DNA from: an uncultured Paraglaciecola sp.
Lineage (GTDB): Bacteria; Pseudomonadota; Gammaproteobacteria; Enterobacterales; Alteromonadaceae
Assembly: GCF_943787955.1 (NCBI RefSeq)
Contig: NZ_CALSOK010000012.1
Span: 2,619 to 66,618, forward strand
Reading direction: 5' to 3'
Length of the DNA: 64,000 nt
Position numbers and translations under genes: made by a program. Under the pieces are notes generated by a model, which saw nothing but the letters and a program-made list of their open reading frames with translations, did no database searches and was not told where the DNA came from. Positions 11,456-59,565 of the stretch are shown in pieces (the first letter of the stretch is position 1; every line of letters begins with the position of its first letter).

Positions 11456-11716
11456 TTGATATTTAATAGACTGTGAGCCCACAACTTACGACAAAGAAAA
11501 AGTGGTTAATAGAAACTAGTCACGATACCCAATATGTTTAGGCTGTTCTGATCATTCTGTGGATTTCTTGGTATAGAGCATCACCGCAATATGTTGAATG
11601 ACGCCTATAAACGATAAACAGTCCTACTATAAACATATGCCAGCAGTCCGCATCACGGCAAAAAGGGCCGTACGCGGTTGAAAATTTTGGGATGATTTTA
11701 TCTCATAAATATAAAA

Positions 11717-11871
11717 TTAGGCGAGGAACGGTCATTCGAGTAGTCGAAACCAGGTGTCTGCTTAGCCCAAGAAAGCGGACGTAGCTATTTATGGTGTTTT
11801 AGTCCCTTTGGAGCGAATAGCGGATCTTCAGCTTTATTGCTTTGATGGACGGATTCACGCGCAAAACGGTC
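11717..11871. repeat. Array A of degenerate 24-25 bp palindromes, about 46-bp period
   Basis: GTCTGCTTAGCCCAAGAAAGCGGAC (11756-11780), GTCCCTTTGGAGCGAATAGCGGATC (11802-11826), GACGGATTCACGCGCAAAACGGTC (11848-11871), and a half element ending at 11733. Confidence 0.7.
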
Positions 11872-12001
11872 ATCGAACTCGCTCATAACTATATCTCAAT
11901 ATGGCACATGGCGCATTACAGAACATCCCTATTTAACTTTAAATTAGTGGCCATATTCACCAAGCCACTAGTGTATATAATATTGACATATGGGTGAATT
12001 T

Positions 12002-15157: not shown

Positions 15158-15391
15158 AGCATGTTTCTAACATCATGATAATAAAAAGAATATAGTTTCT
15201 TCTGGTGAGATTATGACAGACACAGATCTTGCTGCGAGTTGGTCTGCACTGATGTGACGGTCGCCTTATAAACCCAAGTTTGGAGTTTGTATAACAAAGG
15301 GCGTTAGCGAGTTAGTTTTCTAAGACGTAAAGGAGGTGATAGCACCTTAGGACTAATGCTCTAATTCATCAGGATTTTTAAAAAGGCCAAT

Positions 15392-15558
15392 GACCGCTCT
15401 GGTGGCTAACTTGCCGTAAAAAAATCAGAAAACATGGATTTTGTATGCCCGCTTATGGCACAAACTTCCCCATCAGGGTAAACGCTCGACCGTCTGCTAT
15501 TAGGCTCACAGCGGCCTGATTCAATTCCCAAATGACTGCTTAGCCTAAGTAAACGGAC
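15392..15558. repeat. Array B of degenerate 24-25 bp palindromes (four elements)
   Basis: GACCGCTCTGGTGGCTAACTTGCC (15392), GCCCGCTTATGGCACAAACTTCCC (15447), GTCTGCTATTAGGCTCACAGCGGCC (15492) and GACTGCTTAGCCTAAGTAAACGGAC (15534). The last matches the 11756 element at 21/25 positions. Confidence 0.7.
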
Positions 15559-15603
15559 TGTGGTGAAATACAATTTTTTGGTAATCTATCGCAGTAATAT
15601 GGA

Positions 15604-15675
15604 CATTAACGCTGCGCTCACCGGCAAGCTTTAAGCGCAGCGAGGAGCTTGTCCGAGTGAAGCGCCTTGTTAAAT
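15604..15675 (-). other. Integron attC site (72 bp)
   Basis: The minus strand reads ATTTAAC (R'', RYYYAAC)-AAGGCGCTTCACTCGGACAAGC...GCTTGCCGGTGAGCGCAGC-GTTAATG (R'). This is an imperfect palindrome with bulges. R'' is the exact complement of GTTAAAT at the cassette start. Confidence 0.88.
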
Positions 15676-16298
15676 TTTCCATGACCCTTTATAAACTCAT
15701 ACATGACAATCTCTTCGGCTAAATATTGTCGAAGTTGTTTTTCGAGTTCATGGTCTAAAGAAGTAGAAAACTTAGGTGATATATTTTCATGTGGTATCTC
15801 GATTTCTCGCCCTATTTTTTTAGATAGAAAGTCAGCGACTAAGTCTAGCCTATTCATTGGCATTATATGATCTACGCCAATCTCACCATTAGTCATAGTT
15901 AGGAAGTCGTATTGACTTGCCAAATTTGCAAATGGCTTCCTTTTTCCTTCAGAAATATATTCTTTGATATATTCATTGTAACTCATGCCACCGGTGTAAT
16001 TTCGATGATTTGGATGATTCGGGTTTTTAATTTCATCTCTAGTTTTATAGCGATACCTGCTTTCCATCCTTTCTAAAGGATCTCTTATCAAACTGAAAGA
16101 TTCTATCTCTACATTTGGAAGCAGTTTCTTGTGCGCAGAAAATATTGTTTCAGAGAATAATTGAGCATTAATGTGTTTTAATTTGGGATGTCCCGAAAAA
16201 TTTATATTGCAAAATGGTTGTATAGCCTTTTCAATAGATGTTGATGCACACTTCGGCATGCACAAAAAAGCAATACCATACTTAGTAGACATCTGCAT
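15618..16298 (-). CDS. Integron gene cassette ORF: sulfotransferase family 2-like protein
   Basis: PKCASTS (5'-PAPS-binding-like) and IRDPLERMESRY (3'-PB-like) motifs. The ORF starts 16 bp after the attI crossover and its last codons run through attC. Confidence 0.65.
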   Translation of the reverse strand: MQMSTKYGIAFLCMPKCASTSIEKAIQPFCNINFSGHPKLKHINAQLFSETIFSAHKKLLPNVEIESFSLIRDPLERMESRYRYKTRDEIKNPNHPNHRNYTGGMSYNEYIKEYISEGKRKPFANLASQYDFLTMTNGEIGVDHIMPMNRLDLVADFLSKKIGREIEIPHENISPKFSTSLDHELEKQLRQYLAEEIVMYEFIKGHGKFNKALHSDKLLAALKACR

Positions 16299-16313
16299 AA
16301 CACGTATCCTGTA

Positions 16314-16345
16314 ATTTAACGCTTATTATCGAGCATGTCGTATAT
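16314..16345 (-). other. Integron attI site
   Basis: The minus strand reads ...CATGCTCGATAATAAGC-GTTAAAT, giving a GTTRRRY core at 16320-16314. It lies between the divergent intI and the first cassette. Confidence 0.75.
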
Positions 16346-16626
16346 GTAACTTCTCGATTTGATTTTTATTTTCGTCAATTTCAGTACTTACCTATTAATT
16401 TTTATGTGATATTTTTCACTTTCATGCCAGCAAGACCGCAAAGAATTGAAAAGCAAAAGGAGACCTGACTTTAACGCGACTTTTCTGCTTCCTATTAAAA
16501 ACTATGTGAATAATATTTTCCATAATTAAATGAATAACTTAGCGTATTTTTGAAAAACAAAACGAGACCTAAGGAATTTACATAATAGGAAGCAATCTTG
16601 GCATTATTTTAAAATATGCATTATAT

Positions 16627-16643
16627 CTGTATATAAAAAACAG
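16627..16643. promoter_or_regulatory. LexA (SOS) box of intI, one base too long
   Basis: CTGTATATAAAAAACAG is CTG-N11-CAG, against the CTG-N10-CAG consensus. It lies 23 bp upstream of the intI ATG. Confidence 0.7.
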
Positions 16644-17536
16644 TATGATTTGCAGAGGGTAATATTATGTCAAAGTCACCTTTTATAGAATATGTTCGAA
16701 CTATTTTGCGAACCAAAAGGTATAGCATAAAAACTGAAAAGGCCTACCTTCATTGGATTAGGCGATTTATTTATTTCAACGGCAAGCGTCACCCTAAAGA
16801 TATCGGTGAACTAGAGGTTGAACAGTTTTTATCACATCTTGCCATAGCGCTAAAAGTCTCGCCAACGACTCAAAATCAAGCCTTGTGCGCCATCATTTTT
16901 ATGTATCGTCATGTGCTTAATATGGACTTGACTAATATGTCCTTTAAATTTGCTAAGACGCCTGTCCGTGTACCTGAAGTATTAAGTCATAATGATGCGA
17001 TTGCTGTAATCGATAAATTACGAGGGGTTCATCATACTATTGGGACATTAATGTATGGCGCGGGATTTCGTATATCTGAGGTGCTGAAGCTGCGCGTAAA
17101 GGATTTTGATTTTGAACGAAATACTATTTTTATTTTTCATTCAAAAGGCCAAAAAGACCGTGTAACCATGTTTCCAGAATTGACTAAGACCGAGATTACT
17201 AAACAAATTCAAAAAGTGGAGTGTATTCACCAAAAGGACATTGATGAAGAGTATGGACTGTCATCACTACCACCTGCTCTAATTCGTAAATATGGGAAAG
17301 CCGCTACTAACTTATCTTGGCAATATATATTTCCTTCAACTACACGATGTGTCCCCCTTACGATGGCTATGTATGCCGGCATCACCTTCACCAAACTGGG
17401 TTTCGAAAGGCCTTAAAGAAAGCAGTGCAAGAAGCAGGCATTTTAAAACGGGTTACATCACATACCTTTCGTAAGCGTCCGGTGATCCACGCCTAGCAGT
17501 CATCCATTATTCATTCGAAAATACTTCCTCACTGTA

Positions 17537-17845
17537 ATGGGAGGTATTATGAAGCATAAAACACTAGATGAATGGCAGAAATTGATAAGCCAACAACAAA
17601 CGAGTGGGTTAGCCATTGTTGATTTCTGTAAAGAGCACAGAGTTAGCACATCAAGTTTTTATAAATTTCGTGGGCGATTACAACAGCAAGTTAACCCGCC
17701 TCGTTTTGTAAAAGCTAGCAAGTCTGCTATCGACGCGACTATTCAACCATCAGTATCTGTCAGATTGGGCGAGGTTTCGTTATCTTTTTCGACGTCTTGC
17801 GAGCCTGTTTGGTTGGCAAGTTTCGTTAAGGCACTGCAATCATGA
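17537..17845 (+). CDS. tnpA: IS66 accessory protein TnpA
   Basis: WQKLISQQQTSGLAIVDFC...SSFYKFR HTH; first ORF of the IS. Confidence 0.88.
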   Translation: MGGIMKHKTLDEWQKLISQQQTSGLAIVDFCKEHRVSTSSFYKFRGRLQQQVNPPRFVKASKSAIDATIQPSVSVRLGEVSLSFSTSCEPVWLASFVKALQS

Positions 17846-18192
17846 GAATGTTCGTTGAGCCAGATGACATTTATTTGCACCTTGAGCATGTTGATTTTAG
17901 AAAGTCGATTAATGGCTTGCTGGCGATTATCGAAAGTGAATTAACATTAAACGCATTCTCCGGTGCATTATTTATCTTCTGTAACAAAAAACAAGACAAA
18001 CTCAAACTCTTATACTGGGATAAAACCGGGTTTGCATTATGGTACAAACGGTTGGAGAAACAACGCTTCAAATGGCCTAAGTGTGGCCAACTCAAACACA
18101 CTAATTTGAGTGAGCAGCAGTTAACATGGTTGCTCGGTGGCTATGATGTCGTTGGACATCGCAGCTTGGATTACACGGCCTCTGGGTTATAA
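17842..18192 (+). CDS. tnpB: IS66 accessory protein TnpB
   Basis: VDFRKSINGL, KLLYWDKTGFALWYKRLEK. Confidence 0.93.
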   Translation: MRMFVEPDDIYLHLEHVDFRKSINGLLAIIESELTLNAFSGALFIFCNKKQDKLKLLYWDKTGFALWYKRLEKQRFKWPKCGQLKHTNLSEQQLTWLLGGYDVVGHRSLDYTASGL

Positions 18193-18269
18193 CGTACGAT
18201 CATAAGTAGCATTTAACGATCACGTTTTAATCTAATTGAAAACAGTCACTTAGGGTTATAATAAGTGAC

Positions 18270-19766
18270 ATGAATAAAGCCCAACTACGCCAACAAATAG
18301 CCGAGCTTAGCAAGCAAGTTGAACGATTAGAAAGTCGCAATCAGTTTCTTGAAGAGCAGTTTCGTCTTGCCCAACAAAAACAATTTGGGGCGAGTAGCGA
18401 AGGTCACCCTGGTCAAGGTGAATTGTTTAATGAAGCAGAAGAGCTGGTTGCTGAAACACCTGTCGAAAAAGAAGACATCAGCTACACACGCAATAAACCT
18501 AAGCGTAAACCATTACCAAAAACATTACCTCGTGAAGTGGTTATCCATGATATTGCACAGGAAGATAAAGTCTGTGCTTGCTGTAACAATGAATTGCACA
18601 AGATAGGTGAAGACAAGACTGAAAAGCTTGAATTCATCCCTGCTCAAGTTAAAGTGATAGAGCATGTTCGTCCTAAGTATGCGTGTCGTGTATGTGAAAA
18701 GGACGGCATTAGCAATCACATCAAACAAGCACCGGTGCCACCTTCAGTTATCCCTAAAGGTTATGCGACACCAAGCTTACTTAGTCAGGTAATCACCAGT
18801 AAATATCAATTTGGGTTGCCACTGTATCGTCAAGAAGCGATGTTCAAACAATACGGTATTGAACTGAGCCGCAAAACTATGGCCGATTGGATGTTGAGGT
18901 GCGCTGACTTGCTCACACCGCTATATGACCATTTACACGAATTGATACTTAAGCAAGGCGTCATTGCCGCTGATGAAACCACCTTAAAAGTCGTCAGCGA
19001 AGATAAAGCGAAATGCTATATGTGGGTGTATACCTCAGGCGCCGACTCACCTGAAGGGAAATTACCCAATACTGACATCCCAAATATCGTGCTGTACGAC
19101 TATCAATCGAGTCGCGCGGGTCAATGTGCCGTGGATTATTTACAGGGTTACAACGGGTATCTACAAGTGGATGGCTATGCGGGTTACCACAAAACCCAAG
19201 CGACACTCGCAGGCTGTTGGGCCCATGCGAGACGTAAATTCGTTGAAGCCAAAACCGCACAGGGCAAAAAATCTAGCGGCAGAGCCGATTGGGCACTTAA
19301 CCATATTCAAAAGCTGTATCGTATTGAAACGCAAATAAAAGCGAGTGCACCTGATAACAGGCGGAAAGTAAGGCAGGAAAAGAGCACTATATTGCTCAAA
19401 CAGTTCGAAGCGTGGCTGATAAAATCAGAGTCGCAGGTATTGGCAAAAAGCAAATTAGGCGAAGCCATCACCTACTGCTTAAATCAGTGGAGTAAACTCA
19501 ACACTTACACCCAATATGGTCACCTGAACATCGATAATAACCGCGCTGAGCGCGCGATAAAACCCTTCGTCATAGGCAGAAAGAACTGGTTGTTTAGTCA
19601 AACGGCCAAAGGCGCTAAGGCCAGTGCCATACTGTACAGCATTATAGAAACTGCAAAGGCAAACGGACTAACGCCGTTCGACTATATGATGCATTTACTT
19701 GAACAAGTCTCGGTTCAAAACACCGATATCGAGCCACTGCTACCATGGCGATTTGCTAAAGACTAG
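18270..19766 (+). CDS. tnpC: IS66 DDE transposase TnpC
   Basis: Zn finger CACC...[47 protein letters not shown]. Confidence 0.96.
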
Positions 19767-19990
19767 GTGGGATTGCCGGACGCTTACTACCTTTCGGCAT
19801 AGTTTCGCAACAAGATTGCTTGAAACAGGACATGACATCAGAGTCGTGCAAGAATTACTGGGGCATGATGATGTAAAAACCACGCAAATTTACACCCACG
19901 TTTTAGGTAAGCATAAATCTGGAGCAATAAGTCCGACGGATGTGAGATGAAAGACTTAAAATATTAGCACACCTATTAGCCAGACTCTTA

Positions 19991-20021
19991 GACCGCCTGA
20001 TTTTAGGCTCACAGCGGCCTG
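19991..20021 (+). repeat. 31-bp direct repeat of 15488-15518 containing one palindrome
   Basis: GACCGCCTGATTTTAGGCTCACAGCGGCCTG versus GACCGTCTGCTATTAGGCTCACAGCGGCCTG, 28/31 identical. Confidence 0.85.
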
Positions 20022-22146: not shown

Positions 22147-23215
22147 TATAGGTAAAATAAAACGTCATTTTTCCTAAAATTAAATTACATGATGCCTTAT
22201 ATTTTCCATATTGACATCTATTTCATATTCTTAAGGGAGTGAAATTCGGCTATTTTTCGTTTATTAATCAACTGTTTCTACGTAATTCAGAATTCAAGAC
22301 AAGCGCTTCCCGCTGTTGTGCAAACCAGCTCTGAATACTGCTTATGATGATGAACGGCTTTTATTCAAACAGACTTATCTGAGGCGGTGCTCGACTTTGT
22401 GGGGGCAATAATTCAACGACTTCGTCATTTTTTGTATTCAGGTGACTGAGTATCTTTTGGATCACCAATGGATGTGCAAATCGGCTTTACTGCCGATTTG
22501 TCAATGCTCGCTATAACCTTAACTGCACCAGCGCGATGCTCACAGGTTTCAATGTCGATGTTAAAAACCCGTTTAAGTCTTTGCGCCTAGGTCATCGATT
22601 AGTGTTTTGTGCCCGTGTTTTTTCCTGCCCTGTCGGCAAGGCTTGTTTAGTCTTATTTCGTAAAGACGGCGTTATTGTCACGCGGTGCCGACTGTTTGGT
22701 GGAGGGCCACCCCGTGGAGGGCCACCCCGTGGAGGGCCACCCCGCACAAATACGCCATGTACTAATTCATCAGGAATGAATTAAGCCAACCAGAGGTTGC
22801 CCGTAGGGTGAGAAACAGGAACGTTTCACATCTAAGCGCCTCAGATTAACGCGGGGTCTGGGTACCAAGGCCGCTAAACGGGCAATAAATTCCAGCGGCT
22901 CAAAGTGCACATGACTGTGCCGGTCACCGGTGGTGCCGTCACGGTAGGGTGTTTTTAGTTTGGAACGCACCTTAGGGTAAGTCGTTATTGCCAACCTTTT
23001 TTATGATACCCCAGAGCGGGACTCTCTTCACAATAAGCAACGGCACAGCCTTTCGAGTTTACCCCTATCCTGTGAGTTGCTCATGACACCTGCATGGAGA
23101 CTGAAGCCTGCCACATTTGCGGCACAGCCTGACGCAAGCCCCTGCTCTGCCATAGGTGCAATGTTTTTTTCGTCCTTGCTGTTTGCCTGTAGCGATGCGA
23201 TAAGTAATGGATTAC
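22147..23215 (-). mobile_element. Degenerate IS91/ISCR-family (Y2 HUH rolling-circle) transposase 3' half plus oriIS-like end, copy 1
   Basis: Minus-strand fragments in order: SITYRIATGKQQGRK, AGFSLHAGV..KLERLCR, SRSGVS*KRLAIT, LKTPYRDGTT..FEPLEFIARLAALVPRPRVNL, HGVF..PNSRHR, MT*AQRLKRVFNIDIETC. The element ends GACGTTTTATTTTACCTATA. Confidence 0.85.
22699..22743. repeat. 15-bp tandem repeat GTGGAGGGCCACCCC x3
   Basis: Read directly. It is an in-frame insertion within the transposase HGVF-APNS motif. Confidence 0.95.
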
Positions 23216-58543: not shown

Positions 58544-58926
58544 GAAATATCCTCTGATGTCTATGAGTAAACATTGCAATATCTTTTCTCTTTCGCCATT
58601 CCACATAAGCTTGCTATCCACTTCGCAGCTATATATTTCTTGACGATTATTGCGCCATTGAATCATGTGTTCGGGTATGACATAGCTAAAAACTCGTTGC
58701 TGTCTTTATTACACTTTTTTATTTCGAATGCTGTTTGATTTTTTACTTAATGGATAAATTATGTTCAATATTAAATTGAAAACATAACACATATTAACTA
58801 TTACAATGGGTATCTGTGAAATTTTTCAACAACTCGGCAAGTCTATATGGCCTTATTAACTCTGTTCTGTGAAGAAAACACACAAACAGGTTAAGATATT
58901 TAAATACTGTCACACTATTGAGCAAC

Positions 58927-59565
58927 ATGAAGAAAATTGATATTAATACTTGGTATAGAAAGGAACACTTCGAATTTTATTCTAGGTTCGAACAGCCTTT
59001 CTTCAATGTGTGTGCAACAGTTGATGTCTCTAAAACACTTAATTATTGTAAAGAAAATCAGCTTTCTTTTTTCATCTGTGCTTTGTTTCTTCTTGGTTAC
59101 ACGGCCAATCAAATAGAACCATTTAGGTTTCGCATAAACAAAAATGAAGTCGATGTGTATGATGAATTAGAAATAAGCTGCACTGTGTTAAACAGTGACG
59201 AAAGCTTCAGTTTTTGTGAGTTTGGGGCCTGTAGTCACTTTGATTTATTTTATCAACAGGCTGATCAACAGCTCACTAAACTAAAAAATGGTCATATATC
59301 CTTAGAGTCATCCAATACAAAATCCAATAATATATTCTGTTCTGTTTTGCCTTGGTTACATTTCACAAGTTTTTCTCATGCCCTGAAACAAAGTAAACAT
59401 GACTCGGTGCCCAGAATAGTGATGGGTAAATACAAAAAAAGTTATAACGAAATAGCGATGCCTGTATCGGTTGAAGTCCATCATGCACTGATTGATGGCT
59501 TACATGTAGGCCAATATTTCGAAAAGCTGCAACTGAATTTCAATCATTTCTTTGAACTCGAATAA
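58927..59565 (+). CDS. CatA-like O-acetyltransferase (chloramphenicol acetyltransferase family)
   Basis: IDINTWYRKEHF, SVLPWLHFTS, VHHALIDGLH (catalytic HHxxxDG). Confidence 0.85.
   Translation: MKKIDINTWYRKEHFEFYSRFEQPFFNVCATVDVSKTLNYCKENQLSFFICALFLLGYTANQIEPFRFRINKNEVDVYDELEISCTVLNSDESFSFCEFGACSHFDLFYQQADQQLTKLKNGHISLESSNTKSNNIFCSVLPWLHFTSFSHALKQSKHDSVPRIVMGKYKKSYNEIAMPVSVEVHHALIDGLHVGQYFEKLQLNFNHFFELE

What the first reader, a model, noticed from the sequence alone, without database searches (positions are those of the whole stretch)
15604..16345. One-cassette integron with a clear integration signature and a sulfotransferase-like cargo
Seen: the cassette (16319-15610, 710 bp) starts at G|TTAAAT in attI and its attC R'' is ATTTAAC, the exact complement, as expected if it integrated as a circle. 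The ORF's last 19 or so codons (KFNKALHSDKLLAALKACR) are encoded by the attC hairpin itself. After R' only about 45 bp remain before palindrome array B, so any further cassettes are gone. Inference: a PAPS-dependent sulfotransferase-like gene was the last cassette captured, and could modify surface glycans in a host that also encodes cysH and cysQ.
Basis: partly seen in the sequence, partly recalled or inferred. Interest (0 to 1): 0.62.

Follow-up and report, generated by a model that had tools for sequence, protein, structure and literature searches.

The report
Dead integron with attC-encoded enzyme tail
This is a genuine but inactivated gene-capture element (integron) holding one sugar-sulfating enzyme gene whose last helix is written in the recombination hairpin itself, and whose landing pad recurs without any integrase gene in many places across related marine bacteria.

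Summary
Observation confirmed: attC 15604-15675 (38.1 bits with a model built without it), a 710-bp cassette with exact R''/attI complement, and a Sulfotransfer_2 protein resembling heparan-sulfate O-sulfotransferases. 'Further cassettes are gone' is unsupported: the same downstream cap follows a different cassette on a 99%-identical platform elsewhere in the genome. Two less ordinary points emerged. (1) The 18 attC-encoded residues form a confidently predicted helix, kept under purifying selection in homologues whose attC has decayed or vanished; most relatives lack it. This suggests a recombination site exapted into protein. (2) The ~330-bp attI platform occurs in 34 of 39 other genomes of the genus. 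50 of 64 copies examined lack intI, yet 32 of 41 testable ones carry an exact integration signature. Near-identical solo units start at the spacer of a 24-bp palindrome and end at the attI crossover. The scan noted solo attI modules and such palindromes before on other DNA (e1-6835062, e1-6602897, e1-6793253, e1-7261084, e1-6726962). My paper searches found neither point described. Verdict: new variant of a known kind; interest 0.55.

The parts
15604..15675 (-). attC site, 72 nt: R'' ATTTAAC 15675-15669, L''/L' boxes with one extra base, R' crossover G at 15610; also encodes F209-R226 and the stop codon of the cargo
15610..16319 (-). gene cassette, 710 bp; a 97%-identical protein sits in another array before a different cassette (L144)
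15618..16298 (-). Sulfotransfer_2 family protein, 226 aa; PKCASTS (5'-phosphosulfate loop, motif role recalled) and R72/S80 invariant in 44 homologues; C-terminal helix 211-225 encoded by attC
16320..16645 (-). attI platform, ~330 bp, ending ...GATAATAAGC G|TT; conserved along its length in intI-linked and intI-less copies in the genus
16627..16643 (.). LexA-box-like CTG-N10-CAG over the putative Pint -10 (putative -35 TTGGCA at 16598-16603); the window has one extra A that all four runs lack
16667..19950 (+). intI pseudogene: one-base deletion near 17354-17359 (shared with the C23 copy; no indel seen there in four runs) and IS66 insertion; intact orthologues (319 aa; 94-95% identical over the N-terminal 229 aa) pass TIGR02249
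17471..19787 (+). IS66 element, 2317 bp, with 8-bp target duplication TACCTTTC
15534..15609 (-). array cap: TTAATGTCC... then a 24-25-bp palindrome (15534-15558); ~90% identical copy after the C23 cassette, and copies after attC-like sites in C10, G005, G014
15488..15518 (+). 31-bp palindromic repeat, left copy of a direct repeat bracketing the integron
19991..20021 (+). right copy of that repeat; similarity switches here from the C23 module to a C6 module

Best explanation
An inactivated one-cassette integron on a mobile platform. SHOWN: an attC-bounded cassette joined to attI with the circular-integration signature; the neighbouring integrase is broken twice; the DNA after R' is a recurring array cap with no trace of lost cassettes; the cargo has the fold and motifs of a PAPS-dependent carbohydrate O-sulfotransferase. 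INFERRED (about 0.7): an ancestor of this gene was captured with its frame open through the attC. The hairpin-encoded peptide became a folded terminal helix and has since been kept by selection, even in lineages where the attC decayed and the gene settled in the chromosome. INFERRED (about 0.55): the attI platform is a module delimited by the 6-bp spacer of a 24-bp palindrome and by the attI crossover. It spreads with or without intI, and intI-less or dead copies such as this one gain and swap cassettes through an integrase supplied in trans. INFERRED (about 0.6): the enzyme sulfates a surface or secreted glycan using PAPS from the host cysD/cysC/cysN cluster.
For: attC and signature. Dead intI. 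Same platform, same frameshift, different cassette on C23. Cap at 10 of 48 array ends vs 1 of 81 internal junctions. Fold: VIA Z 11.7 (rmsd 3.6, 186 aligned) to heparan-sulfate 2-O-sulfotransferase 3f5f and Z 10.5 to 6-O-sulfotransferase 5t03; model pLDDT 94.7, tail helix about 98. Tail: only 1 of 104 other cassette ORFs runs 10 or more codons into attC. attC is intact in L144 and L145. Identity to an unrelated attC beyond synonymous-shuffle expectation is z 4.6 (L146), 4.1 (L114), 3.0 (L158), 2.4 (L147), 2.1 (L105). Cassette-start GTTA[AT]A lies before the ATG in 5 of 18 tail-clade vs 1 of 32 other loci. Tail pN 0.30 vs pS 0.66 in 6 pairs lacking an intact attC. In a core-only tree a 34-member clade (SH-aLRT 97.2) holds 31 motif-positive tails, with intact-attC lineages branching early and attC-less ones nested. 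Unrelated attCs read in this frame resemble even the basal tails more than real C-termini do (mean -3.5 vs -12.6). Solo platforms: 44 of 50 have an attC within 3 kb; 32 of 41 have the exact signature, shuffle mean 3.75, maximum 12. 11 of 16 near-identical solo pairs start within 3 nt of the palindrome spacer, and 15 of 16 end within -2..+7 of the crossover. Two orthologous solo loci (L068/L083, L069/L098) hold different first cassettes.
Against: No empty attI joined to the cap was found in 40 genomes (one hit, a cassette start), so the cap's origin is not shown. Tail monophyly is not clean: support 0.978 with 84 taxa but 0.19-0.55 with 217. 8 of 39 motif-positive tails lie outside the 34-clade, and tails such as P0060 and P0057 sit among short-tailed proteins. 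10 of 17 homologue loci show z<2 for attC identity. The 16 solo pairs involve only 13 copies and are not independent. A signature at a solo site could have arrived by homologous recombination from an intI-linked platform. The genome's only intact integrase (C19) is 49% identical and has a different attI, and attI is reported to be recognised only by its cognate integrase (PMC2095811, abstract start in listing). No Pc could be mapped (4 sites vs 6.2 expected). Two nearly invariant Trp (77, 81) are Arg here. Foldseek gave no hit at E<=0.001. Expression and activity are untested.
Confidence: 0.62

Rival explanations
1. Ordinary decay only. Every solo attI is the stump of a complete integron that lost intI after loading its cassettes, and this array was truncated.
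For: Decay is visible: this intI, the C17 piece, the IS3-split relic on C2, and a truncated duplicate of the C19 platform on C10 that keeps about 12 intI codons. CALINs are commonly explained so (PMC4889954 section 20). Solo and intI-linked platforms intermix in the tree.
Against: Solo-specific left arms are shared by 14 copies in 8 genomes and by 6 copies in 4 genomes with unrelated further flanks. Same-genome solo sisters are about 97% identical with different cassettes. Orthologous solo loci differ in cassettes. The cap is shared with another cassette.
Confidence: 0.2
2. Cassettes reach dead or solo platforms by homologous recombination or gene conversion between the ~330-bp platforms and the palindrome modules, not by integrase acting in trans.
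For: C12 and C23 are 99.2% identical over attI-intI but only about 90% in the cap, as expected if the platform was copied between two older loci. Only 8 of 39 other genomes have a near-full cognate intI match.
Against: Similarity between solo pairs stops at the crossover itself in 15 of 16 pairs. First cassettes are almost all unique: only one trio plus the C12/C17 pair are shared among 64 sites.
Confidence: 0.25
3. The terminal helix is older than the attC. A native tail was overwritten by, or evolved into, a compatible attC, and selection kept only a join that preserved the helix.
For: Similar tails (P0060, P0057, P0054, L116) fall outside the attC-traceable clade. Two solved sulfotransferases (1nst, 9f6z) align out to residue 226. 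Synthetic attC can be embedded in coding DNA with 3-5 residue changes (PMC7439510, passages).
Against: The attC is of a generic 72-nt type found on an unrelated cassette (L048:7677, 50 of 72 identical). Generic attC translations already resemble the basal tails. The His codon and the stop codon are pairing partners in the hairpin. 114 of 176 outside relatives have tails of 14 residues or fewer.
Confidence: 0.25
4. The cargo is no longer a working sulfotransferase, or acts on a small molecule or protein rather than a glycan.
For: Trp77 and Trp81 are replaced. No NCBIfam family, no solved relative by sequence, and no homologue in 39 other genus genomes with this query. Several homologues lie beside 2OG-Fe(II) oxygenases rather than glycosyltransferases (L110, L111, L112, L160).
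Against: The best structural matches are glycan O-sulfotransferases. Homologues L105, L109, L116, L118, L146 and L158 lie beside glycosyltransferase, capsule, nucleotide-sugar or other sulfotransferase genes (6 of the 21 homologue loci whose neighbours were scanned).
Confidence: 0.3

Closest known systems
Complete integron with pseudogenised intI, and CALIN/SALIN (Cury et al. 2016, PMC4889954; Loot et al., 10.1101/2022.09.11.507474)
   Same: intI, attI and attC-bounded cassette with G|TT crossover; LexA-type box; integrase-less short arrays common.
   Different: Those papers explain CALIN/SALIN by intI loss, IS rearrangement or insertion at attG sites, and IntegronFinder searches only class 1-3 attI. 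Here the integrase-less arrays are headed by a conserved attI platform that itself recurs as a unit. IntI is under 60% identical to all plasmid integrases found, and the platform has no plasmid match.
Synthetic attC sites embedded in proteins (Nivina et al. 2020, PMC7439510)
   Same: One DNA stretch is both a recombination hairpin and coding sequence.
   Different: Natural here, and the peptide persists in homologues after the hairpin is lost.
Delta-attI-type cassettes (PMC12901181) and gene-less promoter cassettes of Vibrionaceae (10.1101/2023.11.21.568050)
   Same: attI-derived or promoter-bearing DNA found away from the usual platform position.
   Different: The solo unit ends in attI, not attC. 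It begins at a palindrome spacer rather than G|TT, heads arrays, and is homologous to the whole intI-attI intergenic region.
Pfam Sulfotransfer_2 (PF03567); heparan-sulfate 2-O and 6-O-sulfotransferases (3f5f, 5t03)
   Same: Fold, PKCASTS loop and R-x7-S motif.
   Different: 18% and 13% identity; bacterial substrate unknown; attC-encoded last helix.

Membership tests
Integron | IntI-type tyrosine recombinase gene | tested here: met
   pieces match TIGR02249; intact orthologues score 390 and 385 bits vs cut-off 265
Integron | integrase intact and able to act in cis | tested here: not met
   frameshift shared with C23 and uncorrected in 4 runs, plus IS66 with target duplication
Integron | attI with G|TT crossover next to intI | tested here: met
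   homology between copies ends at G|TT with different cassettes beyond
Integron | attC with R/L boxes and bottom-strand hairpin | tested here: met
Integron | Pc promoter driving cassettes | tested here: inconclusive
   4 consensus sites vs 6.2 expected; a conserved TATAAT beside the LexA box is only a candidate
Integron | IntI-catalysed attC x attI recombination | not testable with these tools
   needs an assay
CALIN/SALIN | attC without nearby intI | tested here: not met
   an intI pseudogene is adjacent here; met for 44 of 50 solo sites in relatives
Class 1-5 mobile integrons | integrase near-identical to a named class | tested here: not met
   best plasmid match 57.2%
Gene-less promoter cassette | unit ends in an attC | tested here: not met
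   no model hit in 16320-16645; the unit ends at attI
Sulfotransfer_2 (PF03567) | profile score above cut-off | tested here: met
   39.3 bits vs 22
Sulfotransfer_2 (PF03567) | sulfotransferase fold | tested here: met
   VIA Z 11.7 and 10.5, top 17 rows all sulfotransferase-family; Foldseek best E 7.4e-3
Sulfotransfer_2 (PF03567) | PAPS-dependent sulfation of a glycan | not testable with these tools
   needs an assay

The most novel reading that the evidence does not exclude
Integron recombination sites are a source of new protein structure: this sulfotransferase family gained its terminal helix from an attC hairpin and kept it after domestication in several lineages. In addition, the attI platform of this genus is a non-autonomous mobile landing pad, carried by a second, palindrome-based (9-6-9) recombination system and loaded in trans, which would explain many short CALIN/SALIN arrays.
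Probability: 0.4. Interest if true: 0.78.

Novelty: new variant of a known kind. Interest (0 to 1): 0.55.

Why it matters
The element itself is a dead integron. Its surroundings bear on two open points. First, the origin of integrase-less cassette arrays: Cury et al. found 95% lack an intI pseudogene and could not search unknown attI sites; here a searchable attI heads most such arrays in one genus, which makes loading in trans directly testable. Second, how non-coding DNA becomes protein: an attC-encoded helix with a graded series from intact to vanished hairpin is a clean bacterial test case, and a marker for old, domesticated cassettes that attC scans miss.

Tried and rejected
Rfam: no match. 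My first attC heuristic missed the window site and gave many false hits; replaced by a revised heuristic and the covariance model. Single-protein locus search found no relative; the alignment search did. Sequence search of solved structures gave nothing relevant. Empty attI joined to the cap: not found in 40 genomes; the joint skipping 15612-16317 in runs X10 and X14 is best read as the C23 cassette contig, since depths equal those of the C23 allele. The frameshift as an assembly error: rejected. Third copy on C17: it has homopolymer indels, its two IS66 lack target duplications (9 other copies have them), and no joint for it was listed in four runs, so it was not used as evidence. RNA run X17 covers the cassette, but its depth follows DNA copy number, so expression is not shown. 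Strict 9-6-9 pattern: not enriched in the window (1 site at <=2 mismatches vs 0-1 in controls); it piles up only 430-515 bp upstream of solo attI (9 sites over 50 loci). cysH/cysQ as support for the cargo: rejected as housekeeping. Paper searches for solo attI, the palindromes and attC-encoded tails found no description; subscription journals are largely missing from that library and no supplements were read. Look-ups of earlier scan findings by place, by platform sequence, by cargo sequence and for the attC tail returned nothing.

Full report
OBSERVATION. On the minus strand the attI crossover is G(16320)|TTAAAT, the ORF runs 16298-15618, and an attC spans 15675-15604 with R'' ATTTAAC, the exact complement of the cassette's first seven bases. 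The bottom strand folds better than all 200 shuffles. A covariance model from 43 attC sites of other genomes, without this one, gives 38.1 bits; the next hit in the window scores 13.8. Eighteen codons and the stop lie in the attC. The protein passes Pfam Sulfotransfer_2. Its model (pLDDT 94.7) is closest to heparan-sulfate 2-O and 6-O-sulfotransferases (Z 11.7 and 10.5), though Foldseek gave no hit below E 0.001.

THE INTEGRASE IS DEAD. intI starts at 16667, shifts frame near 17354 and is split by a 2317-bp IS66 with an 8-bp target duplication. Four public runs from four studies show no indel at the frameshift, but all lack the extra A at 16635, which makes the LexA-like box canonical. Intact orthologues of 319 aa exist in two relatives and pass TIGR02249. 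The best plasmid integrase is 57% identical. The genome's only integrase above cut-off, on C19, is 49% identical and has a different attI.

NO SIGN OF LOST CASSETTES. Contig C23 carries the same platform (99.2% over 1408 nt, same frameshift, IS66 elsewhere) with a different single cassette, a ParD-like/ParE-like pair, also with an exact signature. It is followed by a cap about 90% identical to the window's. The cap also follows attC-like sites on C10 and in G005 and G014; a G026 match is partial. Caps beginning with a palindrome arm end 10 of 48 arrays with over 3 kb held downstream, against 1 of 81 internal junctions. No empty attI-cap junction was found in 40 genomes, so whether the cap is the old right arm of attI or a preferred secondary target is open. 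A third copy on C17 is doubtful and was set aside.

SOLO PLATFORMS. A DNA search of 40 genus genomes matched 37 of 39 others; by my count of the listed rows 34 reach the attI core, often several times per genome. A near-full cognate intI match occurs in 8 of 39. An attI-core pattern was found in 9 of 11 same-genus and 1 of 289 other family genomes. I fetched 60 regions, chosen from the stronger matches and favouring complete genomes; two did not reach the core and were dropped. With own-genome sites this gave 64 attI sites, 14 linked to intI or pieces of it and 50 without. Of the 50, 44 have an attC within 3 kb, and 32 of 41 with a first attC under 1300 nt have the exact 7-base signature (shuffles: mean 3.75, maximum 12). 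Homology with intI-linked copies covers the whole ~330 bp up to the LexA box. Upstream of it, solo copies share solo-specific arms: 14 copies in 8 genomes, 6 in 4, and 2 orthologues (28 sites lacked a recognisable box and were not classed). Among 16 solo pairs at least 88% identical (13 copies, not independent), 11 begin within 3 nt of the 6-bp spacer of a 9-6-9 palindrome and 15 end within -2..+7 of the crossover. Such palindromes cluster 430-515 bp upstream. Two orthologous solo loci hold different first cassettes. The window's own module is bracketed by a 31-bp palindromic direct repeat, at whose right copy similarity switches from C23 to C6. A 6-bp spacer between inverted arms is typical of tyrosine-recombinase sites (recalled); no recombinase was identified. 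Loading in trans is my preferred reading, but recombination between platforms could give the same signatures. The lead on 9-6-9 sites came from earlier scan notes, and solo attI modules were noted on other DNA; these are not independent support.

THE attC-ENCODED TAIL. Read-through this deep is rare: 1 of 104 other cassette ORFs. The tail is predicted as helix 211-225 at pLDDT about 98 and recurs in homologues 45-69% identical. Of 36 homologue loci scanned, two have an attC there (L144, L145). Of 17 with DNA, seven exceed z 2 for identity to an unrelated 72-nt attC after fixing the amino acids, and ten do not. The cassette-start motif precedes the gene in 5 of 18 tail-clade loci vs 1 of 32 others. 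In six pairs without an intact attC the tail shows pN 0.30 vs pS 0.66, weaker constraint than the core, with saturation in four pairs. Trees built without the tail put tail-bearers in one clade at 0.978 with 84 taxa. With 217 taxa (15 dropped for length or redundancy) 38 of 39 fall in a poorly supported 50-member group, and outside tails have median length 10 vs 26. IQ-TREE on the 95 closest gives a 34-member clade (SH-aLRT 97.2, 31 positive) with attC-less genes nested inside, but 8 positives and a few similar tails lie outside. Unrelated attCs translated in this frame resemble those basal tails more than real C-termini do (45% above the 95th percentile). The His codon pairs with the stop-forming GTG in the hairpin. 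I favour attC-to-protein (about 0.7) over a native helix overwritten by a compatible attC.

CARGO FUNCTION. The host has APS kinase in a cysD-cysC-cysQ-cysN cluster on C5 (cysN named from its sequence by recall). Six of 21 homologue loci scanned lie by glycan genes and four by 2OG-Fe(II) oxygenases. No homologue was found in 39 other genus genomes with this query. Two conserved Trp are Arg here. Glycan sulfation is likely but not shown, and no Pc was mapped.

LITERATURE SEEN. PMC4889954: passages and section 20. 10.1101/2022.09.11.507474: passages. PMC7439510, PMC12690207, PMC8876359, 10.1101/2023.11.21.568050: passages. PMC12901181: abstract and outline. PMC2095811: search listing. No supplements were read. 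Searches found no description of mobile solo attI platforms or of attC-derived protein helices.

VERDICT. The finding as written is an ordinary, dead integron. The dual-coding attC with its decay series and the genus-wide solo platforms make it a new variant of a known kind: interest 0.55; most novel reading probability 0.4, interest 0.78.

Noticed in passing
G000:C17:61358-67295 (L010): Copy of cassette, attI and the first ~46 intI codons between two IS66 that lack target duplications; several homopolymer indels; not seen as joints in four runs. Recent rearrangement or assembly artefact.
   Followed up: partly
L205:3640-3975 (G000:C10 ~329640-329975): Truncated duplicate of the C19 integron platform (about 12 intI codons, LexA box deleted between short repeats) heading a 3-attC array with exact signature.
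   Followed up: partly
G000:C19:118152-118160 (L011): The attI of the genome's only intact integron reads C|TT where its C10 duplicate has G|TT; its first cassette ORF also runs through most of the attC.
   Followed up: no
G000:C2:610288-611897 (L012): Relic of the same platform split by an IS3-like element, intI gone, first cassette interrupted.
   Followed up: partly
array ends in L048, L050, L060, L064, L088, L095, L098: Same sequence (GTTGAGGCTGTAGAA...) directly after the last attC, probably an attC-targeting IS (recalled, untested).
   Followed up: no
array ends in L052, L083, L103: GTTAGTGCGTCAAG... after attC, resembling a group IIC-attC intron 5' end (recalled, untested).
   Followed up: no
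window 11480-12000 and 15160-15560: Clusters of degenerate palindromes flanking a homoserine dehydrogenase / aldehyde dehydrogenase / Lrp module inserted after pspA.
   Followed up: partly
window 22770-22994: Fragment similar to an IS91-type Y2 transposase (E 8.6e-4, below cut-off) in the same island.
   Followed up: no
window 58918-59565: CatA-like O-acetyltransferase match below the family cut-offs, 39 kb from the integron.
   Followed up: no
G000 genome-wide: 30 attC hits, including further short arrays on C4, C13 (two) and C16 with no recognised attI head.
   Followed up: partly
L052, L057, L099 first cassettes: The same short (~235-bp) cassette sits first at three platforms in three genomes; may be gene-less.
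   Followed up: no
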